64,000 bases of DNA. Source: a virus. Shown here in pieces: positions 5,451-33,528 of the stretch; the first letter of the stretch is position 1; each line of letters begins with the position of its first letter. Both the position numbers and the translations under genes were made by a program. The notes under the pieces were generated by a model. It saw only the letters and a program-made list of their open reading frames with translations. It was not told where the DNA came from and searched no databases. The stretch lies in the IMG/VR virus record IMGVR_UViG_3300042673_001035, positions 32,001-96,000 of that record. One strand, written 5' to 3'.

Positions 5451-5715
5451 TTTGTTGTGTTTTGAATTTTTCGATGGTTTCTTTTATTTGATAAAATATA
5501 GAACCTACTTCATCGTCCTTCTCAAACATTTCACGAGAATCGATTTCTCTTAATGCCTCCAGTAATGCTTCGTTTCTTTCTAATTCCGTTTGTAAAAATA
5601 CATCATTATCTTCGATGATATCTTCGTATTTTTCTAATTTTTGTAAAAGATTATAAATTACAAATAATGATGCAACTACTAATACTGATAATATTGTGAT
5701 TATTGTGTATAACAT
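5440..5715 (-). CDS. Small membrane-anchored coiled-coil protein
   Basis: N-terminal hydrophobic helix followed by an acidic coiled coil. Confidence 0.6.
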   Translation of the reverse strand: MLYTIITILSVLVVASLFVIYNLLQKLEKYEDIIEDNDVFLQTELERNEALLEALREIDSREMFEKDDEVGSIFYQIKETIEKFKTQQNAN

Positions 5716-5717
5716 AA

Positions 5718-6353
5718 TTAAACGATTTCGTATCCTTGTAAAAAATATTTGTTTGCATTTTTGTATTTGATTTCAACCATTTCACCTTGTGGAGATTTCA
5801 TTACAATTTTATCGTTTCTACCATAACTAACTCTTTTGACAACCTGTGTATTATAAACTCTATCTTTGATTGTAAATCCGTCTAAATGGTCAATTTCGTG
5901 TTGAACTATAACTGTCATCATAGTTTCCTTAGATACTGACTTATTTTGTTCATCACCTTCTGGATTAATTTCAAATGTTAATTCACCCAAATTATCCGTA
6001 GCTATAACAACTTTAGAAGCTCTAATTGTTTTGATTGGAGACCTTAATGTTGATGGTATAGATAAACAACCTTCAAAGAATAAAAATCCTTCTTTTGACT
6101 TTTCTTTAATTATTGGATTTACTAAGAATAATTCTTCATCACCAAGCTGGATTAAACATGCTCTTTTTTTAATTCCAATTTGTGTTGCAGAAATTCCCAA
6201 TCCTGGATGTTTTACCAAAGCTTCACTTAATTGTAATCTTAATTCATCATATTCTTGTTGTGTAATTTCTGTTTTAGGAGTCGGTGTTTTAAGATACTCC
6301 GTAAACTCTTTTGTTGTTAGTCCATTAGAACCTTTGTCAACTATTAATTTCAT
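5718..6353 (-). CDS. def: Peptide deformylase
   Basis: All three PDF motifs: GLGISATQIG, EGCLS, QHEIDHLDG. Confidence 0.95.
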   Translation of the reverse strand: MKLIVDKGSNGLTTKEFTEYLKTPTPKTEITQQEYDELRLQLSEALVKHPGLGISATQIGIKKRACLIQLGDEELFLVNPIIKEKSKEGFLFFEGCLSIPSTLRSPIKTIRASKVVIATDNLGELTFEINPEGDEQNKSVSKETMMTVIVQHEIDHLDGFTIKDRVYNTQVVKRVSYGRNDKIVMKSPQGEMVEIKYKNANKYFLQGYEIV

Positions 6354-6356
6354 ATT

Positions 6357-6566
6357 TTATTTTTTTAATCCGTATTTTATCCACTTATACCAAACTCTTT
6401 CGTGAATGTAATATTGAATGGGTTTATAAATCAATTCTGCTACTCCAAATGTTGCACCTATTTTAATATCACCACTTACCCACCACATTATACCAAATCC
6501 AATTAAAGTTGATACAATACGATATGAAATGGTTTTGGCAATATGTCTTTTACGCTCTACTACCAT
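6357..6566 (-). CDS. DUF2061-like small membrane protein
   Basis: KTISYRIVST...YYIHERVW signature. Confidence 0.8.
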   Translation of the reverse strand: MVVERKRHIAKTISYRIVSTLIGFGIMWWVSGDIKIGATFGVAELIYKPIQYYIHERVWYKWIKYGLKK

Positions 6567-6945
6567 CTTCTTTATCTATGTTATAAATAATTACATCACC
6601 ATTTGAGTCAATGTATTTTTGTCTAATTGCAGTTCCACTAATTTTTTCTATTTCTTTTGGGGGTTCGTGATATATAACCTCATATCCAACACCTCTACCA
6701 TAGTTTACACTTTCAATGTCTGGAATAATCGATAACAATATTTTATCCCAATTGTTTGTAAAAAATGGTTCTTTTTGTAATTCTTGTAATACTTCTTGTG
6801 CTGATTTAGGATTATTTTCATCCTTTTGTACATCTCTAATTGCAACCCAACAATTTTTTCCGTTTTCTAATTGTTGATTGATTAACCACTCATGTCCTTT
6901 GTGCCATGTTTGCCATCTTCCGATGAATAATGCATATTTTTTCAT
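6550..6945 (-). CDS. Cytidylyltransferase-like (HxGH) nucleotidyltransferase
   Basis: FIGRWQTWHKGH and C-terminal ISGTAIR motifs. Confidence 0.85.
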   Translation of the reverse strand: MKKYALFIGRWQTWHKGHEWLINQQLENGKNCWVAIRDVQKDENNPKSAQEVLQELQKEPFFTNNWDKILLSIIPDIESVNYGRGVGYEVIYHEPPKEIEKISGTAIRQKYIDSNGDVIIYNIDKEDGSRA

Positions 6946-6964
6946 AAATTATAATTTCGTATTT

Positions 6965-6996
6965 CTAATATACGAAAATAATTCTAATTTACCAAA
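6965..6996 (-). promoter_or_regulatory. Bacteroidota-type primary-sigma promoter
   Basis: Minus strand TTTG-N20-TATATTAG, resembling the -33 TTTG / -7 TAnnTTTG consensus. Confidence 0.65.
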
Positions 6997-6998
6997 TA

Positions 6999-8090
6999 TT
7001 AATAAGTTTTAATATTTTCATTTTCACTTCTCAATCTGGATAACTCTCTAACATTACCACCCTTAGTTGATAACCAATAATTAACGGCCTTTGGGTTATT
7101 TATCCATAAATTTCTTTTATTCCAAGGAAATTCTGGATGCATATACTCTTCCCATTTTAAATCTGGAAGGTTTTCTTCTACATTTTCAGAAGTAGGTGTA
7201 TCATCAACCACAACATCAGTAGATTCAACATTTGTATCTTCTTCTTTTTTGTTAGTCTCATTTTTTTCGTTTTCGTTAACAATATTATCTCCGTAAACCT
7301 CATATAAACCCAATTTTTCATCATTTTCCATCATTTCAACTAAAATTTCTTTTTGTTTTTGTTTTTTATTCGAAATTAACCCGTTGAATGCGATAATAAG
7401 TGCGACTGCCAATGGGTCAAACACTATTACAATCAAAAATATGAAGAATTTTACAACATTTTTCAGTTCCATACCAAATGCTTCGGCAATAAACCTAAAA
7501 CCACCAACTTCTTTCTCCAAATCTAAGTTTGAGGTCTTAATTTCGTTGATTTTTTCGTTATTTTTAGCATTTTCTGTTTGTAAACCTTCAATTTTTTTGT
7601 TAATTTGAGCTGTTTGTCTATCTTTTTGGTCAATTGAACGTAAAAGACGAGAATTTACCTTACCTTTGTCTAAAATTGTGTTTTGTGTTGAGGATAACTG
7701 ACCCAATTGGGCGTTTAATTGGGTAATTTGAGCGGTATTTTGGTCAATTTTCGTAGTATAGACTAAAACTTCTCTATCTACCTGTTGCAATTTTAAGGAC
7801 TGAGATTGGAATGCATTGGAAAGATATCCAAATATACCCGCAGAAGTGATTAACATCAGTAATGCAACTGCAGAGGTCAAATACCACTTATTAAACCCCT
7901 TAATGTTTTCCCACTCTTGTTTTAAATAAGTTGCTGCAACTAACTTTGCAAACTCTAATGCACCGGCCATTACCATAACTGATACGGCTGCTCCACTAAA
8001 TAGAACACCCAAACCTGTTACGGAGAAGTAAGCTGCACATCCGGCAATAATTAGTGCAGAAAATCCGACTAAGTATTTAAGCCAATTCAT
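6999..8090 (-). CDS. Multi-TM membrane protein with long coiled coil
   Basis: Three N-terminal TM helices, coiled coil, fourth TM (IVFDPLAVAL), acidic tail. Confidence 0.7.
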   Translation of the reverse strand: MNWLKYLVGFSALIIAGCAAYFSVTGLGVLFSGAAVSVMVMAGALEFAKLVAATYLKQEWENIKGFNKWYLTSAVALLMLITSAGIFGYLSNAFQSQSLKLQQVDREVLVYTTKIDQNTAQITQLNAQLGQLSSTQNTILDKGKVNSRLLRSIDQKDRQTAQINKKIEGLQTENAKNNEKINEIKTSNLDLEKEVGGFRFIAEAFGMELKNVVKFFIFLIVIVFDPLAVALIIAFNGLISNKKQKQKEILVEMMENDEKLGLYEVYGDNIVNENEKNETNKKEEDTNVESTDVVVDDTPTSENVEENLPDLKWEEYMHPEFPWNKRNLWINNPKAVNYWLSTKGGNVRELSRLRSENENIKTY

Positions 8091-8267
8091 TTATCGATTG
8101 ATTCTGGTTAATTCGGCAACTCTCTCTACTATCTTTCTTGCATCTTCTAAAGTAGTGTGAGCAACTGATGGTGTCATTGATTGTGCACCAGTAATTCCGT
8201 TTTGTAAAATCCTTAATTTTCCGTCTAAAGATTCTAATAACATTTGTATTTTTTCGTTGTATATCAT
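8091..8267 (-). CDS. Small hypothetical protein (58 aa)
   Basis: Below track cutoff; MIYNEKIQMLLESLDGKLRILQNG...RINR*; abuts the start of the next gene. Confidence 0.6.
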   Translation of the reverse strand: MIYNEKIQMLLESLDGKLRILQNGITGAQSMTPSVAHTTLEDARKIVERVAELTRINR

Positions 8268-8290
8268 AGTAATAAATATTTGTTTATAAT

Positions 8291-8324
8291 AAAAAAGGTA
8301 GAAGTGTTTAATCTCCTACCTTTT
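8291..8324 (-). terminator. Rho-independent terminator
   Basis: GGTAGGAG/CTTCTACC stem followed by T6 on minus strand, downstream of the Hsp20 gene. Confidence 0.75.
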
Positions 8325-8355
8325 CAATATACGAAAAATAACTGAATTAACCTAA
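8324..8355 (-). promoter_or_regulatory. Bacteroidota-type promoter (weaker match)
   Basis: Minus strand TTAG-N20-TATATTGA preceded by CG as in the other copies. Confidence 0.5.
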
Positions 8356-8733
8356 TTTCGGGGTTAATTTTTTTGGTTTGGACTCTTCTTTTCTTTCAAT
8401 AGTAATTAAGAGAATACCATTTTTAATTTCAGCTTTTGCTTTTTTACCATCAAAGTTTTTACCTACGGTAACTCTTTCTTCAATGTCTGAAATTAATTGA
8501 TTGAAAGGATTTTCTTTGTCCTCTTTTGTTTTTTTGGCTTTGATTTCAATCTTGTCCTCAAAACAATTGATTTCAATATCATCAGGATTGTGTCCTAATA
8601 CTGATAATGCAATTGATGCAGATTCATCTTTAATGTCTACTGCAAATTTGTTTTGAACATAAGTTGTTTTTGTTTTTGATTGTTCGATTGGAAAAAATTC
8701 TTCAAACAATTTACTGTAATCAATCATGTACAT
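8347..8733 (-). CDS. Small heat-shock protein (Hsp20/alpha-crystallin)
   Basis: GHNPDDIEI and KAEIKNGILLITI motifs; 128 aa. Confidence 0.9.
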   Translation of the reverse strand: MYMIDYSKLFEEFFPIEQSKTKTTYVQNKFAVDIKDESASIALSVLGHNPDDIEINCFEDKIEIKAKKTKEDKENPFNQLISDIEERVTVGKNFDGKKAKAEIKNGILLITIERKEESKPKKLTPKLG

Positions 8734-9519: not shown

Positions 9520-10002
9520 TTAAATTAATGAACTTAATTTTAAATTTTTAGATACCCATACTGCCATTATTTCTCTACAACCAGATGTTATTTCTTTAAC
9601 TTCATGATATTCGGTTTTGCCGTCAAATGTTACCATATCTCCTTTTTTAAAATCAATCAACTCTTCATTAACATATAATTGTCCCCCTTCAAAATTATCA
9701 TTTAACATAATCAAATATGTTTTACTTGATTTGATGTCCAAATGTTTTTTAGCAAAATATCCAGATTCATATTTTATATAATGTAATGAATATATTATTT
9801 CATCTTTTTCTAATGTTATATATTTTGATATGGTATCGACCAATATATTATTAGTTAAATCACAATAAAATATATCTTTTAAATTTATTACGTTTTTAAA
9901 ATCGTGATATGATTTTATTTTATTGTTTTCATTTCCAAAATTATAATTTTTTAATATTATATCAATATCGTTATAATCAATTTTATTTTTAAATATCTCC
10001 AT
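9520..10002 (-). CDS. 2OG-Fe(II) oxygenase
   Basis: HLD...LNDNFEGGQL...HEVKEITSGCR (HxD...H...R). Confidence 0.9.
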   Translation of the reverse strand: MEIFKNKIDYNDIDIILKNYNFGNENNKIKSYHDFKNVINLKDIFYCDLTNNILVDTISKYITLEKDEIIYSLHYIKYESGYFAKKHLDIKSSKTYLIMLNDNFEGGQLYVNEELIDFKKGDMVTFDGKTEYHEVKEITSGCREIMAVWVSKNLKLSSLI

Positions 10003-10005
10003 AAT

Positions 10006-10629
10006 TTATATAATTTTATTTGTTTTATTCTCAAATTTTACAATTGGTTCATTCGTATTTAATAAACTATAAATTTTTTTGTAAAAGTCATAACAACCTT
10101 GCCAACCTGGATGCCAATCCATTGGATTACCCCCTTCATCCGCAATAGAAGATACTTGTATTAATTCTACAAACTCTTTTGTTTTTTCATAAAAATCATC
10201 ATTCCACGTTACAAATATTGGTTCATATTCTTTATAAAAATATTTTAACTTTTTAATAAATAGTATTTCATCGTTTCTACCGTCAGCAAGCCAACTTTCC
10301 GTTTCTTTAACTCTTAATTCTAATAATTTTTTTGCAAACGATTTGTCTTTATACCACTCCCAATTTAAATATTTTATATTGTGATTCGTTTCTCTATCTC
10401 CAAAATATCTTCTTGGAAATCTTCCAGGTGCAGTAAATACGATTACGATTCTATCTCCTTCTCTATGATTTGGAATATTTCCAGTTTGATAAACTATTGA
10501 ATGATTATCAGAACCATATTTACCGAAATTTATAATATTATAGTGATTAGATAAATAATCAACCCAATGTATTTTAGGTAAATCCCAATCAACAAAGCTA
10601 TCTCCACATATATAAAGGTTTGGCTTCAT
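10006..10629 (-). CDS. SGNH/GDSL-like hydrolase or acyltransferase
   Basis: GDSF block I, GSDN, C-terminal DWHP. Confidence 0.75.
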   Translation of the reverse strand: MKPNLYICGDSFVDWDLPKIHWVDYLSNHYNIINFGKYGSDNHSIVYQTGNIPNHREGDRIVIVFTAPGRFPRRYFGDRETNHNIKYLNWEWYKDKSFAKKLLELRVKETESWLADGRNDEILFIKKLKYFYKEYEPIFVTWNDDFYEKTKEFVELIQVSSIADEGGNPMDWHPGWQGCYDFYKKIYSLLNTNEPIVKFENKTNKII

Positions 10630-11126
10630 ATTAATTTATTTGTTTCTAATTTTATGTGTTCATTTTGTAAAAACCAAATTAATGAATATCTATCTCCTTC
10701 TAAAATGGGTGTTATTTCGTGTTCAATTCTTACATCAAATATATAGGTATTTCCTATTTCTTTATTTAACACATATTCATCCGAATTATATAATTTAAAA
10801 TTTCCTCCCTCAAAATCATCATTCAATAATACACCCACTGCGTAAACTCTATTATCTCTAATATCATTATGTTTTCCAAACCATGCACCTTTTGTAAATT
10901 TATGAAAATGTATCCTTTTGTTTATTGTTCTGATTGTAATGTTTGTTTCCTTTTGTAAAAACTCCTTCAACTTATCAAATAACCAAATAGTATTTTTATT
11001 ATATTCTATACTCATTGATTCATACATTCTATCTTTATAGTTCCAATTTTGTTTTTTTGATTTTGATATATCAATAATTGATTGACATTCTTGTTGATTA
11101 AATAATATTTTTTGTTTTAATATCAT
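10626..11126 (-). CDS. 2OG-Fe(II) oxygenase
   Basis: HND...LNDDFEGGNF...HEITPILEGDRYSL. Confidence 0.9.
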   Translation of the reverse strand: MILKQKILFNQQECQSIIDISKSKKQNWNYKDRMYESMSIEYNKNTIWLFDKLKEFLQKETNITIRTINKRIHFHKFTKGAWFGKHNDIRDNRVYAVGVLLNDDFEGGNFKLYNSDEYVLNKEIGNTYIFDVRIEHEITPILEGDRYSLIWFLQNEHIKLETNKLI

Positions 11127-12181
11127 AAAAGTTTTGATAAGTTTTTTCTTAATTTGTGTTTTTTAATTATATCATTCATATTATGAATGCACATTTGATT
11201 AAAACAAACTTTATTTATTTGATTTAAAAATTCTTTAAATTCAGGGTGTGATTCTGACCATATTTGTTTTATTAAAAATTCACCATCTGTATATGTTCCC
11301 CAATTTGTAATTTTATTAAAATATATTTCAACCTTTTCTTTAAGTATATTTTTCATCAATTTATAAAATGAGTCCATCTCTGTGTAATTTGTATCTTGTA
11401 CAACGAATGAAGTTCTAACTTTTTTTATTGTTTCACATTTAGAAATAAAATTTAAGTTTTCAATTAAAACGCCCCAATCCCCACCTCTTCTAATAATTTC
11501 ATATGTTTTTTGAGTTGATGCATCTATACTTATTTCTATTGTTTTTATTAAATGGTGTATGTGGCTTAAACTATTCCACATTTTTTCATTTAATAATAAT
11601 CCATTGGTATGTAAATGAATTTGTTTTATATTTGGGAATTTTTTATTATCAAAATTTAGTAATAATTTTCTAATTGATTTGGATGCAAATGGGTCTGCAG
11701 AACCTGAAAGATATAACATCTTTATATTTTTACCATAAACATCAACAATTTTATTTATTGTATTATCAATAAATTCCAATTCCGCTCCATCCGCCATAAT
11801 TGCCACATTTCTACAAGATGGACATGATAGATTACAACTTCTATCAAATGCAAAATTAATATTAGTCGGGCCGTTTTTATAATCATTAACATTAAAATTG
11901 GTTATATGTTTAAACCCCTGTGGTATGTTTTTATTAATTAACAATTCAGACAAATACGGACATTGTGTTTTTGAACAATATTTGTATGAACCATCTAAAA
12001 TTGATTCTTGTATTTTTTTTAATTCGTCACTCTCCCAAGCAGTTTCAATATCTTTTAAATTGGAAATTTTATTGGGTAACCAAGATGGACAACAACTATA
12101 TATTCCATTTTTATGTGCTTCTAAATATTCAAATGGAGTTGTACATATATATTTTTTTAGTATTTCTTCGTTTGTATCCAT
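11123..12181 (-). CDS. Radical SAM protein with N-terminal SPASM/twitch-like Cys cluster
   Basis: CNLSCPSC (CxxxCxxC), HTNG, ISIDA; N-terminal CTTPF...CCP...CSKTQCP. Confidence 0.9.
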   Translation of the reverse strand: MDTNEEILKKYICTTPFEYLEAHKNGIYSCCPSWLPNKISNLKDIETAWESDELKKIQESILDGSYKYCSKTQCPYLSELLINKNIPQGFKHITNFNVNDYKNGPTNINFAFDRSCNLSCPSCRNVAIMADGAELEFIDNTINKIVDVYGKNIKMLYLSGSADPFASKSIRKLLLNFDNKKFPNIKQIHLHTNGLLLNEKMWNSLSHIHHLIKTIEISIDASTQKTYEIIRRGGDWGVLIENLNFISKCETIKKVRTSFVVQDTNYTEMDSFYKLMKNILKEKVEIYFNKITNWGTYTDGEFLIKQIWSESHPEFKEFLNQINKVCFNQMCIHNMNDIIKKHKLRKNLSKLL

Positions 12182-12187
12182 TTCATC

Positions 12188-12775
12188 TTACATTAATGTT
12201 TTTTTATTTTTGAAAGCTGGAATAGTAAATAAAACATTTGCTGCGATAACAACTCTATCCTTATCCGAATTTGGAGATGTTTCGGGTCTATGATATAACC
12301 CTGCAGGGAAAACAAATAGTTCATCTTCTTCAGGTAAAATGAGTATATCTTGTTCATTATGTATAAACCCCAATCTACCATCTTTTTTTTCTAAATTATT
12401 TGGCATTTGAGCATAATATGTAAAGGTATAATCACTTATTATGGAACTTTTGACTGTTTTTGAAAATTCCATATGATTATGCCAATGGGATTGTGTAGTG
12501 TCACTTCTTAATATAAGAGCCCATGGATAGATACAATAATCTGCATTTTCAATATTTTTATCTTTATAAAATAACTCTTTACATTTTTCTACACCAAAAT
12601 TAAGTATATAATCTATCTCTTTACATTTTAATATAAGCTCTGTTTGGATACCTGGATAGTCGTATGATAAATTATGAGAAAATAATCCTACATTTTCATA
12701 AATTTTTCTAATCAAATCTTCCTTTACAAATGGAAAATTTACTTTGTATCTATGTACATTCATTTCATTAATCAT
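12188..12775 (-). CDS. Putative 2OG-Fe(II) oxygenase (TIGR02466-like)
   Basis: WHNH...YYAQMP...FVFPAGLYHRP...DRVVIAAN. Confidence 0.8.
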   Translation of the reverse strand: MINEMNVHRYKVNFPFVKEDLIRKIYENVGLFSHNLSYDYPGIQTELILKCKEIDYILNFGVEKCKELFYKDKNIENADYCIYPWALILRSDTTQSHWHNHMEFSKTVKSSIISDYTFTYYAQMPNNLEKKDGRLGFIHNEQDILILPEEDELFVFPAGLYHRPETSPNSDKDRVVIAANVLFTIPAFKNKKTLM

Positions 12776-13386
12776 ATTAAGCTATTTTTACTTTTTATTT
12801 TAATATCGTTTTCAATAATCCAACCACTTATTGAATATCTTTTATAGGTTTTATCAACTATTTCATCGACGAGATGTAAATCTTTAATATTTTCAACATC
12901 AAATATATTTAAACTATTAAATTTAGGTAATAATTTATGTGTAATATTATCATTTTTATCAACAAATTGCAAGCACCCACCTTTACTTTCATCTACATCT
13001 TTTGTTAAATTATAAACAAATGCATATTTTCTATCAAACACCGAATCATTGTGTTTTGAAAGAAAACTACCATATGTATATTTTGAAATAAAAATACTTT
13101 GAGGTATGAAAAATTTGTCATTAAGTAAATTACTTAATTTAAATTCAAAATTTAACATTTTTAATAAATCATAGATAAATTCTGTATTTTCAATCTTTTC
13201 AAACCAATAAGAAAATTCACCTTTTTTAAATTTAGATTTTTCAAATTCATAAGATTTTTTATGATTAGAAGATGTTATCCAATCTTGTTGTGAATCTATT
13301 ATTTTATATATAGTTTCTGCAGTTTGTTCAGATAAAAAATTTTCTATCTGTGTTGGTTTGGTTTTTAATTCTTCTATATAATTCAT
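12772..13386 (-). CDS. 2OG-Fe(II) oxygenase (prolyl hydroxylase-like)
   Basis: FLSKHND...YNLT...GGCLQF...HLV...RYSISGW. Confidence 0.9.
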   Translation of the reverse strand: MNYIEELKTKPTQIENFLSEQTAETIYKIIDSQQDWITSSNHKKSYEFEKSKFKKGEFSYWFEKIENTEFIYDLLKMLNFEFKLSNLLNDKFFIPQSIFISKYTYGSFLSKHNDSVFDRKYAFVYNLTKDVDESKGGCLQFVDKNDNITHKLLPKFNSLNIFDVENIKDLHLVDEIVDKTYKRYSISGWIIENDIKIKSKNSLI

Positions 13387-13389
13387 ATA

Positions 13390-14076
13390 TTATATTAAAT
13401 TTATTTTATTTTGAAATCTTGATTCAAAGGTATTCCATAAAAAATTTTTTAAATCATCGTTTAATATAATTTTATTATTTTCTTTTTTTGTTTCATTAGT
13501 TTTTACTATTTTTAATTCTACACCAAATTTTTGGTATATAAAACTTGTAAATTTATCTAATTCTGTAATATCAAATTCGTATGTACATTTTTCATTTTCA
13601 GTCCAAAAGTTTTTAGAACCAAAAATACATAAAGTGCCAGTTAAATTTTTATTTATTTTAGTAAAAAAACCATTGTAACAATCCCGCATTTCTTCTAAAT
13701 TTTCTGAATATATTGCATTTGCAAAATTAGTATTGAAATGTTTGTAGATAAATTCATTATCAACATCTTTCCAATCTATAATTAGTTCATTTTTATGTGT
13801 GTTTTTAGAAACATCAAAAAAAAATTCTAATGCACTTAACCATCTATCAAACCAATTTCTATTAATACAAAACGTTTCTTTTATTCCAAACTCATTTATA
13901 CATTGACTTTTTCTTAAATGGTAGTGTTTTAAATTACTTTTACTATTTTTAATAAATGATTCTATTAAAGGTGATTTTTTAATTTTTAAAACTGACGATT
14001 CAAATGAATTTATTAAAGAAACAGATGCACACCTTGGTATTGAAATCCAAATAAGTTCGTTATTTATGAGTAACAT
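13390..14076 (-). CDS. Sulfotransferase-like protein (Sulfotransfer_2 type)
   Basis: WISIPRCASVS 5'-PSB-like loop and RNWFDRWLSA 3'-PB-like motif. Confidence 0.75.
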   Translation of the reverse strand: MLLINNELIWISIPRCASVSLINSFESSVLKIKKSPLIESFIKNSKSNLKHYHLRKSQCINEFGIKETFCINRNWFDRWLSALEFFFDVSKNTHKNELIIDWKDVDNEFIYKHFNTNFANAIYSENLEEMRDCYNGFFTKINKNLTGTLCIFGSKNFWTENEKCTYEFDITELDKFTSFIYQKFGVELKIVKTNETKKENNKIILNDDLKNFLWNTFESRFQNKINLI

Positions 14077-14088
14077 ATTAAAATATTT

Positions 14089-14358
14089 TTATAGTAACCT
14101 CTTTGATTCTGATTTTACTTTTGTAAAAAATTCATCATCTACATCTTTCCATTTACCTTTTGGACATGGATTTTGATTCTCTGAAAATATTTTTTTGGAT
14201 ATCGGACACCCACATGCCGAACAAATAGGTTTTGTTAATATAAGTTTTTTATACTCACATCCATTACATATGTTAGCTCTATTTAATGCCAACAATCTTT
14301 GGGATTCAGTTGGATTAAATGAAATTATCCAAGCATTAATTATTTCAGTAAAATTCAT
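14089..14358 (-). CDS. Small CxxC metal-binding protein (DUF6171-like)
   Basis: R..ICNGC...CSACGCPI..K...CPKGKW. Confidence 0.75.
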   Translation of the reverse strand: MNFTEIINAWIISFNPTESQRLLALNRANICNGCEYKKLILTKPICSACGCPISKKIFSENQNPCPKGKWKDVDDEFFTKVKSESKRLL

Positions 14359-14378
14359 AACTTATTAATTGAAAAAAT

Positions 14379-14456
14379 TTAAGAATTGTCACTTACTATT
14401 AATGCACCTATTTGGGTCATTATAGTATTAATTGTTGTAATTTCTTGTATAGTCAT
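14379..14456 (-). CDS. Possible 25-aa small ORF
   Basis: MTIQEITTINTIMTQIGALIVSDNS* fills the gap between the Hint protein and the CxxC protein. Confidence 0.4.
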   Translation of the reverse strand: MTIQEITTINTIMTQIGALIVSDNS

Positions 14457-14477
14457 TTTATTAAATATTTTATTTTA

Positions 14478-15986
14478 TTATAAATACAAACAAACTCTAC
14501 CACCATCATAACAAGGGTTATTATAATTGTAAGTACAGGTTTCGTACATTTTATTACATCCACCAGCTCCGATACCAAATACGAAACAACGTTGGCATTG
14601 AAAGTTATGTTCGATTGCTACAAACATACCATCATCGGTTTTAGTTAAGAATAAGTGTTCATCCTGAACTCCAATCTGCCATCCATCAAATCCTTCTACA
14701 CTATTTGTTATATTTGTTACAGTTTTTTCGTTTACTTCAATTGTTTCTAAATTATCCGTTTGTACTAAAAGTATTTTATCACCTATTTGTAACATATCTA
14801 CTTCTTCATCTTCGGAATGAAGTTTTGTCCATTTAACAATATCACCTCTCTTTATAAGATATTGTGATATGGATGTATCCTGCCATGTTGTATTATCATC
14901 AAATGTAATTGTTGTCATTGGTGATAATACATTTGATTTTGTTTTAAACTGAACGACATTTGTACTAAATGTTGAATTTGATAAAAATTCATTAAAATCA
15001 ACTTGATAATTTCGTAATTCGTTTGATGAATCTAAATTTGGTTGATTTTCATATAATTTAATAGTCTTTATTATATCACCAGCTTGTAATTCTAATCCTG
15101 TTTTATATGTACCATCTGCCATCATTACCAAATCGGTGTCTAACAATTTAGGCCTACTAATATCTTGGGTGTTTGTGATATATGACTTTCTAAAGTTTGA
15201 GTCTATTTCGAAAGTTTCAGAATTATAAGTAACATTATCATACAATTGTACATTACCATGTTTAGTATATGCACCAATTGAAATAGATTCTAATGTCGAT
15301 GGATATAATAAATTATATGAACGAACTATACTGACTACATTATTTTCAATTTTATTTAAATTTAAATGATACTCCATTAAAAAATATTCATCGGTTACAT
15401 TTTGTAATACCACATCTAATTCTTCCAATGTAGTTACTTTATAAAATTTAGGGTATTCGTTTCTGTCGTATACCGGATATTTAGCTTTTAAAATAAAATT
15501 TGGATGTACTCCATTATCCGATATCGTTGTTATATTTGATATAAGTTCGTCATTTTCATTTTTATATGCAAATTGATGGCCAAATTCAGTAGATTGGATT
15601 AACTTTAAAAAATTAACTTTATCCTTACAATAAGTTTCATCCAATATCGCCGTAACATCATATGCACTTCTTATAATTAGATGTGTATCGGAATCATCAA
15701 CGTGTGGGATAGTTATATTACCACCTACTTCCTCAAAAGCATATTCAATATTTAAACCAGTACATAAAATTTCTAATTTATCGTGAAATTGTCTTATGCC
15801 ACCAATATATGTTACTTTAGTAAAGTTATTGGTAGTTATGAAATTGGATAATTCATCTAAATTAAATAAACTATTATATTGTTCTTGTGTTAGTCTGTTG
15901 ATACCTGAATTTGTGTTTGTTTCAATTGGTAATAAATTACCTACCGAATTATATACAAAGTCGGTTCCTAATAATACTGTTCTCAT
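14478..15986 (-). CDS. Circularly permuted ATP-grasp-like + Hint domain + C-terminal Cys-rich peptide fusion
   Basis: N-terminal GTDF...IETNTNSG, later FILKAKYP and YFLMEY; Hint block A-like KLLDTDLVMMADGTYK...LQAGD; terminal block ...HLFL...IEHN; then a 41-aa peptide with 6 Cys. Confidence 0.7.
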   Translation of the reverse strand: MRTVLLGTDFVYNSVGNLLPIETNTNSGINRLTQEQYNSLFNLDELSNFITTNNFTKVTYIGGIRQFHDKLEILCTGLNIEYAFEEVGGNITIPHVDDSDTHLIIRSAYDVTAILDETYCKDKVNFLKLIQSTEFGHQFAYKNENDELISNITTISDNGVHPNFILKAKYPVYDRNEYPKFYKVTTLEELDVVLQNVTDEYFLMEYHLNLNKIENNVVSIVRSYNLLYPSTLESISIGAYTKHGNVQLYDNVTYNSETFEIDSNFRKSYITNTQDISRPKLLDTDLVMMADGTYKTGLELQAGDIIKTIKLYENQPNLDSSNELRNYQVDFNEFLSNSTFSTNVVQFKTKSNVLSPMTTITFDDNTTWQDTSISQYLIKRGDIVKWTKLHSEDEEVDMLQIGDKILLVQTDNLETIEVNEKTVTNITNSVEGFDGWQIGVQDEHLFLTKTDDGMFVAIEHNFQCQRCFVFGIGAGGCNKMYETCTYNYNNPCYDGGRVCLYL

Positions 15987-16007
15987 ATTTTATGTTTCTA
16001 TTTGTCT

Positions 16008-16015
16008 ATAAATAT
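16008..16015 (-). promoter_or_regulatory. Candidate phage late-promoter motif ATATTTAT
   Basis: Same 8-mer lies just upstream of the starts at 8267, 21340, 35572 and 37646 (variant before 3028). Confidence 0.35.
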
Positions 16016-16032
16016 AAATTAATTAAATAAAA

Positions 16033-17832
16033 TTATATTATTTTTTTTCCATATTGAGGTTTTGGAATATCGTTTAAGTCTTCAAATAAGATAATAGGTT
16101 CTTCAATGGTTTCAATCTCATTTGAGATTATAGTGTATGATTGTGATCCTGTTTCTTGTTTTTCTTTTAATTCTAAATATAATCCTCTATTATAGATTGA
16201 ATATGGTATTCCTATTCTTTTAAATGTCTCCTCAGCTTGTTCAATTCTTCTTAACCTATCCATTGGTGTATTCCACTTTGTTGTGAAATTAACACCATTC
16301 TCATATTCTAAATATTGTTTCTCCACATCTCTCCACTTTACTAATAGAGTTTGATGTAATAAAAATACGGAACAGGTTACTATTTCTGCCATACAATCTC
16401 TAAATTCCTCTACAAAGTCTAAAGTTTTTTGAAAATCTTCATCGGTTTCGTTTAGATATCCAACAATGATTTGCATACCAAACAACAATGGATATTCAAA
16501 TTCAGTTCCCTTATTTTCTTCATTTACCTTTCTTACATTTTCAAAAATTTCTCTCACACCTTGAACATCGGTGTATTTTTTCATATGTTTAAGAACTGGT
16601 TCGGAATAAGATTCGAATCCTGTAATAAACTTTGTTAGTCCTGCTCTACGATATAATCTTATAGTTTCTATATCTCTCATTTGAGATTGTAGTCTAACAT
16701 TACCACCGATATTAATATCTAATCCTCTTTCGATAATTTTTTCACACAATTCTTTTAACCACTTTGGATTACCATTGATAATTGAATCGTGACAAAAGAA
16801 ATACTTCTTTCCTTTTGCAACCCATCCTTCTAATTCCTCTAACACATTTTCAACGGTTCTATATCGGTATTCAGGTATATAATCCGGTACTGAACAAAAC
16901 GAACAACGATAAGGACAACCTCTACTCATTGTAATAGGTTTAGTGTCCTGATAAACTGACTTATAATAAAAATTATCTTCTAAAGAACTATAATCCGGAA
17001 TAGGTAATGCATCCATTGGAATATTTGCTCTCATTTTATTGTGGATAAAAATACCATTTAATTGCCAAATTAATCCAGGTATAGACATTAAGGACTCCTC
17101 ACTCCAATCTGACTTAAGTATTTCTACAAATGTCATCTCACCATCACCTCTACTGATTGCATCGATGAAAGTATATTCGTTTGTTTTATAATTTGAATTG
17201 GGTAATCTACCAAAGTCTAACACTTCAACACCATTACCACCAATTAAAATTTTAACCTCTGGATATTTTTCTTTTACTAATTTTGCAATTGCAAGTGTTG
17301 CATCTATATTACCATCGATAATACTAAATCCTAAAAATTTAGGCTTTGCTTTCTCTAAATATCTACCAACGAATCCGTATGCAATATCATATGTTTCCTG
17401 AAAATTATATAATAGATGAAACTGACTTTGTTTGGAGTATGTATTAAATAAATTGAAAAACTCACCTTGCTTATCCGGTGGATTTAAAAAGAAATAGTCA
17501 ATTACTGGGTCAATGATTGCAACCCTTAATTCGGGTTCATATTTGTCTATCCAAGACTTTAAACCAACTATGCCGGAATAATAACCTGATTCATTGATAT
17601 TAGGAACTTGTAATAACAAACAATCTTGTTCTTCTATATCTTGAAAATGGAATTTATGTTCTATCTCCAATCCTTTGCCTTTCTCTGCAAAAACAGTTTG
17701 ACGCATATATTGTAGTAAATCGACTTTGATGTCAAATACTTCAACACCACTTTTCATTTGGTCATCTACTCTATTCTCAACTTTTTGAATTTGACTTTCA
17801 ATATCAGGACTAATGATTTCGTCAATTTGCAT
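16033..17832 (-). CDS. B12-binding radical SAM enzyme (class B methyltransferase-like)
   Basis: Cobalamin-binding region (LGFS...ILIGG...GDGE), SRGCPYRCSFC, GFES, IIVGYLNET. Confidence 0.9.
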   Translation of the reverse strand: MQIDEIISPDIESQIQKVENRVDDQMKSGVEVFDIKVDLLQYMRQTVFAEKGKGLEIEHKFHFQDIEEQDCLLLQVPNINESGYYSGIVGLKSWIDKYEPELRVAIIDPVIDYFFLNPPDKQGEFFNLFNTYSKQSQFHLLYNFQETYDIAYGFVGRYLEKAKPKFLGFSIIDGNIDATLAIAKLVKEKYPEVKILIGGNGVEVLDFGRLPNSNYKTNEYTFIDAISRGDGEMTFVEILKSDWSEESLMSIPGLIWQLNGIFIHNKMRANIPMDALPIPDYSSLEDNFYYKSVYQDTKPITMSRGCPYRCSFCSVPDYIPEYRYRTVENVLEELEGWVAKGKKYFFCHDSIINGNPKWLKELCEKIIERGLDINIGGNVRLQSQMRDIETIRLYRRAGLTKFITGFESYSEPVLKHMKKYTDVQGVREIFENVRKVNEENKGTEFEYPLLFGMQIIVGYLNETDEDFQKTLDFVEEFRDCMAEIVTCSVFLLHQTLLVKWRDVEKQYLEYENGVNFTTKWNTPMDRLRRIEQAEETFKRIGIPYSIYNRGLYLELKEKQETGSQSYTIISNEIETIEEPIILFEDLNDIPKPQYGKKII

Positions 17833-17849
17833 GAATATAATAATTTAAT

Positions 17850-17881
17850 TAAATATACAAATAATTATTGAATTTTCCAAA
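17850..17881 (-). promoter_or_regulatory. Bacteroidota-type promoter
   Basis: Minus strand TTTG-N20-TATATTTA upstream of the B12 radical SAM gene. Confidence 0.6.
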
Positions 17882-17910
17882 TAAATCAATTTTATTCAAA
17901 AAAATAAAAT

Positions 17911-18558
17911 CTATATTAATGTTGAACCATTGTTATTAATATAATTAATCATTATATCAGCCAATACTTTACAGCCAAATTCGGATAGGTGGTGGTCATT
18001 TATTACGCCTTTTGTTTCATTTATTATTTCCATCTTACCTTTATAATATGACCAATATAAATTATTTACTATTTTACTTTTTTCAAATTCGGAAAAAGCT
18101 GACCAATAAACTATTTTGTTATTTTTAAATGTATAATTTAACAAATCCATCCATCCCATTATTTCTTTTAAAAATAATTCGGAATCTCTATTTACTAAAA
18201 TTTCTTGTAAAGTCCTCTCACTTATAAGTGGTAAATCTGGTAAATGATTAAGAATTATTGTATGGAAAAATTTGTTAGACATATCTGCTAGTCTAAATCT
18301 TGTTATTGATGACCATCCTATTATTATATAATCACCATCTTTGATGTTATTGATTTGTTTTATAATGGAATCTAATATCGTATAATTATCACTACCACCT
18401 TTAGCACAATTTCGAAATGGTAATTCTAAATTATCCGCAAGAATTTCTGGCCAAAATTTGGGTTCATACCCTTTCCATTTGATATATTCATCTGCCCACC
18501 GATAAGATTTATTATATCCCTCAGTATTAGAATCACCAAAAAACCATATCTTATTCAT
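17911..18558 (-). CDS. SGNH/GDSL-like hydrolase or acyltransferase
   Basis: FFGDSNTEG, GGSDN, DHHLS; close paralog of 30030..30677. Confidence 0.8.
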   Translation of the reverse strand: MNKIWFFGDSNTEGYNKSYRWADEYIKWKGYEPKFWPEILADNLELPFRNCAKGGSDNYTILDSIIKQINNIKDGDYIIIGWSSITRFRLADMSNKFFHTIILNHLPDLPLISERTLQEILVNRDSELFLKEIMGWMDLLNYTFKNNKIVYWSAFSEFEKSKIVNNLYWSYYKGKMEIINETKGVINDHHLSEFGCKVLADIMINYINNNGSTLI

Positions 18559-18584
18559 ATTTTATAATATTGTTTAAATTAATT

Positions 18585-18628
18585 GGGGTGGGGGTTGGGG
18601 GAGAAAGTCGTTTTTTAAGAAAATTTTT
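18585..18628 (+). repeat. G-tract element G4-T-G5-TT-G5-AGAAAGTCGTTTTTTAAGAAAATTTTT (copy 1)
   Basis: Intergenic; matches the reverse complement of 28111..28151. Confidence 0.75.
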
Positions 18629-18651
18629 AGAACATACCTTCTATTGATAGT

Positions 18652-19353
18652 CTATATCAATTCTCTTTTTATACTTATTATACTTTTTAATTTCATTTTA
18701 AGATTCAATATATCATCTTCCAATTTATCAATTTCATTTTGTTTTTCCATTAATAAGTCGTATGATGTCAGTCCTCTTTCATTATTTAAAATTCGTTTTA
18801 ACCATAACTCATCTTTGTCACATAAAATATATAATTCATCCAATTTGTCTTTTGATATCATAGATAAAATTTCAACTTTTGATTTAAAATGTTTCATTTT
18901 ATGGGAATCATATAATTCGGGTTTATATTCAATTTTATAATCAAAAAATTCCGACAATTTGTCTAGATGTATCATTTTGAATCCAAAAATATTCCATATA
19001 CGATACAGATTTTTATATAAGTTTGGAGACCAATGTTCGGATTTATCATCAATCATATTTTCAATAATTACATCCAAATTCCAATCTTGTTTACGATTAT
19101 TGGAGGTGTGTATTTTGCCCTCTATATTTCCCCACACATAATCGGTTTGAATCGCCGATATGATATGTTCACACGGATTTCTATATGTTACAATTGAATT
19201 TTGTGTAATATCGATTGGTGGATTAGGTGAATTTGGGTCTATATCCACTTCCGATTGGTTTATCCAATTAGAATTTCTTACAAATCGAATACCACACTTT
19301 GGAATACAAATAATTGGTTCTCTATCTTTATATTCATGTTTTGATAAAATCAT
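18652..19353 (-). CDS. Sulfotransferase-like protein
   Basis: ICIPKCG and YRNPCEHIISA motifs; C-terminal coiled coil. Confidence 0.6.
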   Translation of the reverse strand: MILSKHEYKDREPIICIPKCGIRFVRNSNWINQSEVDIDPNSPNPPIDITQNSIVTYRNPCEHIISAIQTDYVWGNIEGKIHTSNNRKQDWNLDVIIENMIDDKSEHWSPNLYKNLYRIWNIFGFKMIHLDKLSEFFDYKIEYKPELYDSHKMKHFKSKVEILSMISKDKLDELYILCDKDELWLKRILNNERGLTSYDLLMEKQNEIDKLEDDILNLKMKLKSIISIKRELI

Positions 19354-33512: not shown

Positions 33513-33528
33513 ATTATGTATTTTTACA

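What the first reader, a model, noticed from the sequence alone, without database searches (positions are those of the whole stretch)
9520..19353. RiPP-like tailoring cluster surrounding the Hint precursor
Seen: the co-oriented genes around the fusion protein encode a B12-binding radical SAM, a second radical SAM with an extra Cys cluster, four 2OG-Fe(II) oxygenases, two sulfotransferase-like proteins, two SGNH-like proteins and one CxxC protein. No ordinary phage genes are interspersed. Known: these families perform methylation, thioether/C-C crosslinking, hydroxylation, sulfation and acylation in peptide and glycan pathways. Inference: this is a phage-encoded biosynthetic cluster whose substrate may be the released Cys/Tyr/Asn-rich peptide, giving a toxin, signal or virion decoration. 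The enzymes might instead modify virion proteins or host surface glycans.
Basis: partly seen in the sequence, partly recalled or inferred. Interest (0 to 1): 0.88.

Follow-up and report, generated by a model that had tools for sequence, protein, structure and literature searches.

The report
Phage peptide-tailoring cassette with self-cleaving precursor
A lake-water phage carries a conserved block of modifying enzymes around a protein that looks built to cut off its own variable, cysteine-rich tail, so it may be a previously undescribed viral route to modified peptides, though no chemistry has been shown.

Summary
Window 9520-19353 (minus strand) is an unbroken run of 12 co-oriented genes: a B12-type radical SAM, a twitch/SPASM-like radical SAM, four 2OG-Fe(II) oxygenases, a sulfotransferase-fold protein, two SGNH-like proteins, a CxxC protein and the 502-aa ATP-grasp/Hint protein. 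The second "sulfotransferase" rests on motifs only.

Of 51 distinct homologues of the fusion gene with at least 6 kb on both flanks, 51 have the CxxC gene beside them, 47 have oxygenases (median 4) and 46 have the sulfotransferase. B12-rSAM is rare (3).

New here:
- Nearly every enzyme of the cassette, whatever its family, ends in a shared tail, K-[T/S]-L-I.
- A conserved 25-aa micro-gene follows the fusion gene.
- A sister subfamily pairs Trp-rich tails with a Trp halogenase.
- APS kinase often sits next door.
- A complete related phage without the fusion gene has none of the tagged enzymes.

The family is missing from GenBank phages. Among 185,579 cellular species genomes it hits only one 2-kb MAG contig.

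Best reading, about 50%: a RiPP-like pathway acting on the self-released Cys-rich peptide. Virion or glycan decoration is not excluded. Cleavage, modification and tag docking are all inferred, not shown.

The parts
14478..15986 (-). 502-aa fusion protein ('HINT'). Residues about 1-270 have a glutathione-synthetase-like ATP-grasp fold. Residues about 280-461 are a Hint/BIL-like domain that lacks an N-terminal nucleophile and ends in an invariant E-H-N. Residues 462-502 are a 41-aa tail with 6 Cys.
   Evidence: AlphaFold model pLDDT 84.2, pTM 0.77. Foldseek PDB: BIL2 6y75_B E 4e-8, TMt 0.74; inteins; hedgehog 1at0; YgiC 7uk8 E 5e-5; glutathione synthetases. In 117 sequences E459, H460, N461 and C477 are invariant, and P279-K280-L281 occupy the place of Cys1.
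14481..14603 (-). Codons for the 41-aa hypervariable Cys-rich tail, the putative core peptide.
   Evidence: 167 distinct tails among 172; length 24-62 aa; 6 Cys (79) or 8 Cys (84). Tail identity is 0.46 where the body is 0.80, and 0.31 where the body is 0.51 (0.14 without shared Cys).
14379..14456 (-). Conserved 25-aa micro-gene directly after the fusion gene. Function unknown.
   Evidence: present in 99 of 147 fusion-gene loci and in 0 of 41 of the sister subfamily; third-position variability 0.377 against 0.231 and 0.211; 8279 synonymous against 17122 non-synonymous codon differences; the other frames contain stops.
14089..14358 (-). CxxC protein ('Cx'), 89 aa, six conserved Cys, ends KRLL. 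It is the invariable partner of the fusion gene.
   Evidence: Alignment. Co-occurrence 79 of 80 loci and 51 of 51. Weak DUF6171 hit. Atlas neighbours are virus-only.
13390..14076 (-). Sulfotransferase-fold protein ('ST'), ends NLI.
   Evidence: Present beside 46 of 51 fusion genes. APS kinase is nearby in relatives, 28 of 51.
12772..13386 (-). 2OG-Fe(II) oxygenase (PF13661/PF13640), ends SLI.
   Evidence: 1.7e-19.
12188..12775 (-). Divergent 2OG-Fe(II) oxygenase, ends TLM.
   Evidence: Pfam 0.016; PHROG 81 at 4.6e-15.
11123..12181 (-). Radical SAM with an extra Cys-rich N-terminus, twitch/SPASM-like, ends KLL.
   Evidence: Beside 22 of 51 fusion genes.
10626..11126 (-). 2OG-Fe(II) oxygenase (PF13640), ends KLI.
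   Evidence: 1.4e-7. PHROG 61 at 2.3e-14.
10006..10629 (-). SGNH-like protein with GDS near its N-terminus, ends KII.
   Evidence: No Pfam hit. Family HMM 1.4e-45. Alignment and profile.
9520..10002 (-). 2OG-Fe(II) oxygenase (PF13640), ends SLI. It is the last tagged gene.
   Evidence: 3.2e-9.
16033..17832 (-). B12-binding-domain (class B) radical SAM, ends KII. It is accessory, in 3 of 51 contexts.
17911..18558 (-). SGNH/GDSL-like protein, ends TLI.
   Evidence: 1.7e-4, below cut-off.
18652..19353 (-). 233-aa protein of unknown family. Ends ELI. It is the first tagged gene.
   Evidence: No hit. hhalign probability 0.6%. In 3 of 51 contexts.

Best explanation
Proposed mechanism. The cassette is a phage-borne, RiPP-like peptide maturation system. 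The 502-aa protein is both precursor and platform. Its 41-aa hypervariable Cys-rich C-terminus is the core peptide. The co-encoded enzymes modify it: hydroxylation by prolyl-hydroxylase-type 2OG oxygenases, PAPS-dependent sulfation, radical-SAM cross-linking or methylation, and SGNH acyl chemistry. In a sister subfamily Trp halogenation is added. The peptide is then released when the invariant terminal Asn of the Hint domain cyclises. This is C-terminal cleavage only, because the N-terminal nucleophile and the +1 nucleophile are absent. The enzymes share a C-terminal K-[T/S]-L-I tail, which I infer to be a docking motif that brings them to one hub, most simply the ATP-grasp/Hint body.

Shown: the folds, the invariant residues, the hypervariability of the tail, the synteny, the shared tail on the enzymes, and the restriction of the family to viruses.

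Inferred: cleavage, every modification, the role of the ATP-grasp domain, the docking role of the tail, and what the peptide does.
For: Architecture. ATP-grasp plus Hint folds. E-H-N is invariant in 117 sequences, and the block-F-like His444 is nearly invariant.

Tail.
- It evolves much faster than the body.
- 167 of 172 tails are distinct, on a fixed 6- or 8-Cys frame.
- In four variants (L105, L111, L139, L141) the Cys-rich segment is followed by an extra C-terminal module that looks like a second self-cleaving domain. Peptidase_S74 is a weak Pfam hit in two of the four (E 0.006 and 0.02, below cut-off). If real, the peptide would be bracketed by two cutters.

Synteny. Around 51 distinct fusion genes: Cx 51, OX 47, ST 46, SG 40, a second sulfotransferase-like family 36, APS kinase 28, rSAM 22. 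In the reverse direction: 74 of 80 Cx loci and 66 of 74 ST loci have the fusion gene.

Residue-specific enzyme. Trp halogenase (PF04820, 1e-86) is present only with tails that carry the conserved CWC..W pattern. 24 of 24 such tails have at least 2 Trp, against 9 of 31 where it is absent.

Shared tail on the enzymes.
- 804 distinct genes; K at -3 in 57%, T/S at -2 in 61%, L at -1 in 77%, I at 0 in 69%.
- Leu codon use at the tail equals internal use.
- By family: ST 52/52, Cx 55/56, rSAM 37/40, against 0 in HSP20, CarbT and p363.
- It is absent from the cofactor-supply genes: APS kinase 2/37, NT128 0/49.
- It is disordered in the ST model.

Control genome. One complete 274-kb relative without the fusion gene has no OX, ST, SG or rSAM members. 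Its Cx-like and halogenase homologues are untagged.
Against: - No cleavage, mass shift or binding has been observed.
- ST with APS kinase occurs without the fusion gene in three loci, L185, L211 and L220 (L185 and L211 have the same gene map). All three lie on incomplete records.
- In this genome three genes with the same kind of tail lie beside the tail-fibre gene, a methyltransferase and two GT7 glycosyltransferases.
- The best structural neighbours of ST are heparan-sulfate sulfotransferases (tyrosylprotein sulfotransferase only Z 4.5). The SGNH profile hits carbohydrate esterases.
- The halogenase-Trp link is confined to one subfamily, so it may be a single evolutionary event. At least one context of that subfamily (L156) lacks the halogenase.
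- Enzyme content otherwise tracks tail composition poorly. Only oxygenase count against Pro stood out (rho 0.37, p 0.008, uncorrected, one of about a dozen tests).
- No transporter or recognisable RRE domain was seen.
- The Pfam, PHROGs and NCBIfam searches used here name neither the fusion protein nor Cx.
Confidence: 0.5

Rival explanations
1. The tagged enzymes decorate something else, such as virion proteins (for example tail fibres) or a glycan, by hydroxylation, sulfation, acylation and carbamoylation. In this reading the fusion protein is one more enzyme of that pathway (an ATP-grasp ligase), or its regulator, and its Cys-rich tail is not the substrate.
For: - Genes with the same kind of tail follow the 1283-aa tail-fibre gene, next to a methyltransferase and two GT7 glycosyltransferases, in this genome.
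- Carbamoyltransferase and a GT4-FkbM fusion flank the cassette in many relatives: 23 and 13 of 51.
- The nearest folds to ST are carbohydrate sulfotransferases, and the SGNH hits are carbohydrate esterases.
- ST plus APS kinase occur without the fusion gene in three loci, L185, L211 and L220.
- Iyer et al. 2010 (PMC2938197, passages read) predicted hydroxylation followed by sulfation of tail-collar or collagen-like proteins in bacterial operons.
Against: - The fusion gene and Cx are the only invariable members, 51 of 51.
- The one complete relative examined that lacks the fusion gene lacks all the tagged enzymes.
- This reading does not explain a hypervariable tail behind an intact self-cleavage motif.
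- It does not explain the halogenase/Trp-tail pairing either.
Confidence: 0.27
2. The cassette makes a small-molecule or non-ribosomal product, as was proposed for the tandem dioxygenase arrays of cyanophage Syn9. The Cys-rich tail is a metal-binding or structural appendage, and it need not be released.
For: - Tandem dioxygenase and halogenase arrays with no known substrate were described in cultured cyanophages (PMC2938197, passages read; PMC3037559, passages read).
- The ATP-grasp fold is that of peptide-bond-forming ligases.
- The tail is 18% Cys.
Against: - An invariant E-H-N, together with loss of every splicing nucleophile, is best explained by cleavage.
- The tail is hypervariable apart from its Cys frame.
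- Oxygenases of the PF13640 type are, to my recollection, typically protein hydroxylases.
- tblastn with the fusion gene, ST, the rSAM and an oxygenase found no cyanophage record in the GenBank phage collection.
Confidence: 0.15
3. The genes are unlinked 'morons' gathered in a hypervariable island, or they serve only to consume 2-oxoglutarate.
For: - The island sits at a variable position between conserved backbone genes (p341/tm91 on one side, HD/HSP20 on the other).
- Sullivan et al. 2010 proposed a role in modulating 2OG (PMC3037559, passages read).
Against: - Gene order is conserved down to 39% identity of the fusion protein.
- Unrelated families share the same C-terminal tail.
- Co-occurrence is 51 of 51.
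Confidence: 0.03

Closest known systems
RiPPs with large protein-like leaders (proteusins and NHLP/Nif11 precursors, including prochlorosins) and the flavin-dependent RiPP Trp brominase
   Same: - A large folded N-terminal part, derived from an enzyme fold, precedes a short hypervariable, Cys-rich core.
- Tailoring enzymes are co-encoded.
- Trp halogenation of a ribosomal precursor has precedent (PMC12537861 and PMC10858898, search listing and abstracts only; prochlorosins are recalled).
   Different: - The 'leader' here is about 460 aa and carries what looks like an active ATP-grasp domain plus its own Hint cutter.
- No RRE or leader-peptide logic was seen. Instead the enzymes carry a common C-terminal tail.
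- The family is virus-only, apart from one 2-kb MAG contig.
HINT domains that release C-terminal toxins in bacterial polymorphic toxin systems, and bacterial intein-like (BIL) domains / the Tetrahymena BUBL BIL2
   Same: - A Hint fold is used for cleavage, not splicing, and sits directly before a variable C-terminal cargo.
- BIL2 is the best structural match (6y75_B, E 4e-8, TMt 0.74).
- The polymorphic-toxin usage is recalled. PMC3417536 and PMC3113570 appeared only in search listings.
   Different: - The cargo is a 24-62-aa Cys-rich peptide, not a toxin domain.
- There is no secretion or trafficking N-terminus.
- There is no Cys1, so conjugation through a thioester, as in BUBL, is not possible by the usual route.
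SCIFF/ranthipeptide and sactipeptide systems (radical SAM/SPASM maturases acting on Cys-rich peptides)
   Same: - About six Cys in about forty residues.
- A twitch/SPASM-like radical SAM is encoded nearby. The class features are recalled.
   Different: - The radical SAM is present beside only 22 of 51 fusion genes.
- Its NCBIfam scores are below every curated cut-off.
- The precursor is a 500-aa protein.
Tandem 2OG-Fe(II) dioxygenase / Trp-halogenase arrays of cultured cyanomyoviruses (Syn9 gp49-gp58)
   Same: Many tandem dioxygenases, sometimes with a Trp halogenase, occur in T4-like aquatic phages with no known substrate (PMC2938197 and PMC3037559, passages read).
   Different: - Those phages gave no tblastn match to the fusion gene, ST, the rSAM or an oxygenase of this cassette.
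- Here a candidate substrate is encoded in the middle of the array.
- I did not check whether the Syn9 enzymes carry the same C-terminal tail.
RaxX/RaxST (a sulfated ribosomal peptide of Xanthomonas)
   Same: A PAPS-dependent sulfotransferase is encoded beside a Tyr-containing ribosomal peptide (recalled). Here APS kinase is also adjacent in relatives.
   Different: There is no sequence relation. The target residue is unknown, and the nearest folds are carbohydrate sulfotransferases.

Membership tests
RiPP biosynthetic gene cluster | A ribosomal precursor with a conserved leader and a variable core | tested here: met
   The body is conserved and the tail is hypervariable on a fixed Cys frame.
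RiPP biosynthetic gene cluster | Tailoring enzymes co-encoded with the precursor across relatives | tested here: met
   Cx 51/51, OX 47/51, ST 46/51. Searches show the reverse direction.
RiPP biosynthetic gene cluster | The core peptide is actually modified and released | not testable with these tools
   This needs expression and mass spectrometry. No RNA holder was listed.
RiPP biosynthetic gene cluster | Leader recognition element (RRE) on the enzymes | tested here: inconclusive
   No RRE-type Pfam hit. A shared C-terminal tail is found instead.
Hint superfamily (inteins, BIL, hedgehog) | Hint fold | tested here: met
   Foldseek: BIL2 E 4e-8, TMt 0.74; many inteins; hedgehog 1at0. BFVD Hint proteins.
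Hint superfamily (inteins, BIL, hedgehog) | C-terminal His-Asn | tested here: met
   H460 and N461 are invariant in 117 sequences. The sister subfamily ends in MHN.
Intein (protein splicing) | Cys, Ser or Thr at Hint position 1 and at +1 | tested here: not met
   P279-K280-L281 are invariant where Cys1 would be. The +1 residue is V, Y, A, G and others; Cys in 2, Ser in 9 and Thr in 6 of 172. So it is not an intein; it is a cleavage-only Hint.
ATP-grasp ligases (glutathione synthetase / GspS-like) | ATP-grasp fold | tested here: met
   YgiC 7uk8 E 5e-5, YjfC, and yeast, plant and human glutathione synthetases. TM scores are low (TMt about 0.3), so support is moderate.
ATP-grasp ligases (glutathione synthetase / GspS-like) | Mg/ATP-binding residues | tested here: inconclusive
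   E22 (at least 90%), N24, R106, K167 and R222 are invariant or nearly so. Assigning them to catalytic roles rests on recall, not on a superposition.
Radical SAM | Pfam PF04055 above its cut-off, and a CxxxCxxC motif | tested here: met
   36.5 and 67.7 bits against a cut-off of 29.5. CNLSCPSC and CPYRCSFC can be read.
2OG-Fe(II) oxygenase (PF13640/PF13661) | Pfam match above its cut-off | tested here: met
   Three of the four genes pass. The fourth passes only by PHROG 81, 4.6e-15.
PAPS-dependent sulfotransferase | Sulfotransferase fold | tested here: met
   VIA-align: the 13 best rows are all sulfotransferases; the top is Z 8.8, rmsd 3.9, 169 aligned. Foldseek gives nothing at E <= 0.001, but its top rows are sulfotransferases. 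Atlas neighbours carry Sulfotransfer_2 in 13% and 57% of members. Support is moderate, because Z near 8 can arise from a common arrangement.
PAPS-dependent sulfotransferase | PAPS-binding motifs and a PAPS supply | tested here: inconclusive
   The motifs P-[KR]-C-A-S-x-S and R73...S81 are conserved, but their reading as PAPS loops is recalled. APS kinase (PF01583, 8.7e-18) is adjacent in 28 of 51 relatives. It was not found in this 116.7-kb, 52%-complete record.
SGNH/GDSL hydrolase | Pfam match, and catalytic Ser and His | tested here: inconclusive
   The Pfam hit is below cut-off. Ser10 and His190 are invariant. All 14 PDB profile hits are SGNH/GDSL but weak.

The most novel reading that the evidence does not exclude
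This would be a virus-only class of peptide factory with reversed recognition logic. In ordinary RiPP systems a short leader is read by each enzyme. Here a 460-aa self-cleaving 'leader' (ATP-grasp plus Hint) would gather up to a dozen or more unrelated tailoring enzymes through one shared C-terminal K-[T/S]-L-I tail. It would then process its own hypervariable knotted peptide and cut it free, with the ATP-grasp domain possibly ligating or cyclising the product.
Probability: 0.3. Interest if true: 0.92.

Novelty: new variant of a known kind. Interest (0 to 1): 0.82.

Why it matters
- Substrate for phage oxygenase arrays. Multiple 2OG oxygenases in aquatic T4-like phages have lacked a substrate since at least 2010 (PMC2938197, PMC3037559). 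This cassette puts a concrete, testable candidate substrate in the middle of such an array.
- A new way to release a peptide. If the reading holds, phages of lake bacteria make heavily modified, fast-evolving Cys-rich peptides by a route not seen in cells. Leader removal would be by a built-in Hint domain.
- A new way to recruit enzymes. Recruitment by a four-residue C-terminal tail would be of use for enzyme discovery and for engineering.
- Abundance. The family is large: at least 702 relatives of the fusion protein and at least 510 Cx loci in IMG/VR. None of them carries a functional name.

Tried and rejected
Searches and tests that gave nothing usable:
- Complex prediction of the fusion protein (A2) with Cx (A4) gave no verdict: score 0.14 against a mark of 0.32, and the controls were not run.
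- The look-up of sequencing runs listed no RNA holder.
- Sequence searches for ST found nothing: PDB profile, Pfam on 31 members.
- hhalign of the ST profile against the 233-aa protein gave probability 0.6%.
- Megablast of the region, and tblastn of the fusion gene (both subfamilies), ST and the rSAM against GenBank phages, gave no match. Cx gave one marginal 38%-coverage hit in a Halomonas phage. The oxygenase gave seven records, none a cyanophage.
- The promoter/terminator scan was uninformative: 80 promoter-like sites against 106.5 expected.
- Links between enzyme content and tail composition were weak. ST against Tyr: 3.07 against 2.40, with only 5 contexts lacking ST. rSAM against Cys: 7.50 against 6.97. 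Oxygenase number against Pro: rho 0.37, p 0.008, uncorrected.
- BFVD gave only partial Hint matches.
- Four literature searches found no description of an ATP-grasp/Hint/Cys-tail protein or of the shared tail. These cover open-access text only, and no supplements were seen.

Ideas I rejected:
- A DNA-level signal as the cause of the shared tail. Leu codon use at the tail equals internal use, and the downstream bases are not conserved.
- An intein. It has no nucleophiles.

Not done:
- I did not check the C-termini of the oxygenases of cultured cyanophages.
- I did not make a residue-level superposition of the ATP-grasp active site.

Full report
**What is in the window.** The window is bases 32001-96000 of a 116,680-base IMG/VR virus record that CheckV rates 52% complete. 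Every large gene is on the minus strand, and GC content is 23-34%. Elsewhere the record encodes a baseplate wedge protein, a 1283-aa tail fibre with a Peptidase_S74 chaperone, an SbcCD-like nuclease and a primase. The window itself holds a DNA ligase, CobS/CobT-like proteins, Hsp20, peptide deformylase and a carbamoyltransferase. So this is a large tailed phage of the T4-like kind. Nearly identical DNA is held by lake-water metagenome runs: 24 runs from 21 studies, 10 of them with at least half of the sampled words and 3 marked as possible sources.

**The observation.** From 9520 to 19353 there are 12 co-oriented genes with nothing else between them.
- Both radical SAM enzymes, three of the four oxygenases and the CxxC protein are confirmed directly.
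- The fourth oxygenase rests on a PHROG match (4.6e-15).
- The 228-aa 'ST' protein has no sequence match. Its model (pLDDT 89.6) has sulfotransferases as its 13 best VIA-align rows; the top is Z 8.8, rmsd 3.9, 169 aligned. Foldseek is weaker, with nothing at E <= 0.001.
- The second 'sulfotransferase' (233 aa) could not be confirmed.
- The two SGNH-like proteins have an invariant Ser and His and only weak profile hits, all to SGNH/GDSL esterases.

**The central protein.** The 502-aa protein has no Pfam or PHROG hit. It has at least 702 relatives in metagenomes, all unnamed. A model built on 117 sequences (pLDDT 84.2, pTM 0.77) matches Hint domains best: BIL2 of Tetrahymena at E 4e-8 and TMt 0.74, then inteins and hedgehog. 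It also matches glutathione-synthetase-type ATP-grasp enzymes, starting with YgiC at E 5e-5.
- E459, H460 and N461 are invariant. The His of an intein-like block F is nearly invariant.
- The place of the N-terminal nucleophile is held by an invariant P-K-L.
- The residue after Asn is Cys in 2, Ser in 9 and Thr in 6 of 172 sequences, and otherwise not a nucleophile.
- Everything needed for Asn cyclisation is kept, and everything needed for splicing is gone. This is the pattern of a cleavage-only Hint.
- What follows is a tail of 24-62 aa (median 39) with 6 Cys (79 cases) or 8 Cys (84 cases), and 167 of 172 tails are distinct.
- The tail diverges far faster than the body. Tail identity is 0.46 where the body is 0.80, and 0.31 where the body is 0.51 (0.14 once shared Cys are set aside).

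- A scan of IMG/VR with the fusion protein gave 101 relatives, of which the best 80 loci were kept (39-83% identity).
- I built profile HMMs from the window's proteins and searched the ORFs of these loci. Cx occurs in 79 of 80, oxygenases in 69-71, ST in 63, SGNH-like proteins in 59, the rSAM in 45 and the B12-rSAM in only 6.
- Gene order is conserved: fusion gene, oxygenases, Cx, ST, then more oxygenases, rSAM and SGNH.
- I then counted only distinct fusion genes with at least 6 kb on both sides (n = 51): Cx 51, OX 47 (median 4, range 0-10), ST 46, SGNH 40, a second sulfotransferase-like family 36, APS kinase 28, carbamoyltransferase 23, rSAM 22, Trp halogenase 14, B12-rSAM 3.
- In the reverse direction, Cx has at least 510 loci in IMG/VR. 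Of the 80 kept, 74 have the fusion gene, 2 end at the contig edge, and 4 carry an untagged Cx-like paralogue.
- Of 74 ST loci, 66 have the fusion gene and Cx, and 5 are at contig ends. Three (L185, L211, L220) have ST next to an APS kinase without the fusion gene, all on incomplete records; L185 and L211 have the same gene map.

**Two subfamilies.** The Cx scan revealed a second arrangement, ST-Cx-fusion gene. In it the Hint domain ends in MHN and the tail is a more conserved Trp-rich pattern (CWCPW.YCG..C.S..C..C). These clusters carry a Trp halogenase (PF04820, 9.8e-87). All 24 distinct tails in halogenase-containing loci have at least 2 Trp. Of 31 well-flanked loci without a halogenase, 9 do, and 17 have none. 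This is the only residue-specific match between an enzyme and the tail. It is confined to one clade, so it may count as a single event, and one context of that clade (L156) lacks the halogenase.

In four variants the Cys-rich segment is followed by an extra C-terminal module that starts S-D and resembles a Peptidase_S74 domain. Pfam finds S74 weakly in two of the four (E 0.006 and 0.02, below cut-off). If real, it would cut the other end of the peptide.

**A shared C-terminal tail on the enzymes (new).** In the window all 11 enzymes end in two hydrophobic residues preceded by K, S, T or N (SSLI, NKII, NKLI, SKLL, KTLM, NSLI, INLI, KRLL, KKII, STLI, RELI). The fusion protein and the flanking genes do not.
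- Across loci the same holds by family: ST 52/52, Cx 55/56, rSAM 37/40, the oxygenase models 96/113, 39/42 and 22/23, B12-rSAM 6/7. It is found in 0 of 18 HSP20, 0 of 28 carbamoyltransferase and 0 of 15 p363 sequences.
- It also marks unlabelled cluster genes, the halogenase (27/27) and the second sulfotransferase-like family (68/70). It does not mark APS kinase (2/37) or its small neighbour (0/49).
- Over 804 distinct genes the consensus is K (57%), T/S (61%), L (77%), I (69%). Leu codon use at the tail equals internal use, and the downstream bases are not conserved, so the constraint is on the protein.
- In the ST model the last four residues are disordered.
- One complete 274-kb relative shares the backbone genes but has no fusion gene. 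It has no oxygenase, ST, SGNH or rSAM family member. Its two Cx-like genes and its halogenase homologue are untagged, and only 5 of its 286 ORFs end in a tag-like way, against 12 of 141 in this record.
- I infer a docking motif tied to the cassette. The partner is unknown, and the one complex prediction I ran gave no verdict.

**Micro-genes (new).** A 25-aa ORF at 14379-14456 follows the fusion gene. Its family is found after 99 of 147 fusion genes and after none of the 41 of the second subfamily. It has the codon signature of a coding region. The second subfamily has a different conserved micro-gene of about 45 aa at the same place. Their roles are unknown.

**Distribution.** No GenBank phage record matches the fusion gene, ST or the rSAM. 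In 185,579 species genomes only one 2-kb contig of a MAG matches. BFVD holds no full-length look-alike.

**Interpretation.** The most economical reading is a RiPP-like system in which the fusion protein is the precursor and the enzymes act on its tail before Hint-mediated release. I put this at about 0.5. The main rival, at about 0.27, is decoration of virion proteins or glycans. It is fed by four points:
- tagged genes lie beside the tail-fibre and glycosyltransferase genes;
- a carbamoyltransferase and a GT4-FkbM fusion flank the cassette in relatives;
- the nearest folds of ST and the SGNH proteins act on carbohydrates;
- ST plus APS kinase occur without the fusion gene in three loci.

A small-molecule pathway, of the kind proposed for Syn9's dioxygenase array (PMC2938197), gets about 0.15. 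Chance co-location is practically excluded.

**Comparison and novelty.** Parts of the logic are known: protein-like RiPP leaders, RiPP Trp halogenases, HINT-released cargo in polymorphic toxins, radical SAM maturases of Cys-rich peptides, and cyanophage dioxygenase arrays. The combination was not found in four full-text searches. That combination is an ATP-grasp/Hint body carrying its own core peptide, a tail shared by all the tailoring enzymes, and restriction to viruses. I file it as a new variant of a known kind. The bolder reading, reversed recognition, is kept as the novel case.

Noticed in passing
window 9520-19353, and loci L002-L230: Unrelated enzymes of the cassette share a C-terminal tail, K-[T/S]-L-I. 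It is seen on 804 distinct genes. It is absent from the fusion protein, from the cofactor-supply genes and from the backbone genes.
   Followed up: yes
window 14379-14456 (-): A conserved 25-aa micro-gene lies right after the fusion gene. The sister subfamily has a different micro-gene of about 45 aa at the same place (for example downstream of the fusion gene in L089).
   Followed up: partly
G000 5428-8677 (outside the window; L162): Three ORFs with the same kind of C-terminal tail follow the 1283-aa tail-fibre gene (Peptidase_S74). They precede a methyltransferase and two GT7 glycosyltransferases, one of which has a Laminin_G_3 insert.
   Followed up: partly
window 29215-29757, 30030-30677, 33252-33551, 62803-63636: Further copies of cassette families lie away from the cluster. 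They are a second sulfotransferase-like protein (tagged), an SGNH-like protein (tagged), a short untagged Cx-like protein that ends at its CPLSKW motif, and a weak SGNH-like hit.
   Followed up: partly
window 6550-6945 (-): This is a homologue (3.4e-72) of the 128-aa protein that sits between APS kinase and the fusion gene in many relatives. It has an HxGH-like motif and no Pfam hit. No APS kinase was found in this record.
   Followed up: partly
L139:327-2252, L141:2868-4772, L111:5897-7819, L105:8324-10018: These fusion-protein variants carry an extra C-terminal module after the Cys-rich segment. It looks like a Peptidase_S74 domain, but Pfam finds S74 only weakly, in L139 and L105 and not in L141 or L111.
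   Followed up: partly
L007 and L052 (one 211-kb IMG/VR contig): One phage genome carries two diverged copies of the fusion gene, each with its own Cx and ST.
   Followed up: no
L231-L244 (record G005, 273,997 bases, CheckV 100%): This related phage has the same backbone (HD, HSP20, p363, PDF, p232) but no cassette. It marks the insertion point upstream of the HD gene.
   Followed up: partly
L134: One 5.4-kb contig with the cassette is labelled as a giant-virus MAG in IMG/VR. This is probably a binning label only.
   Followed up: no
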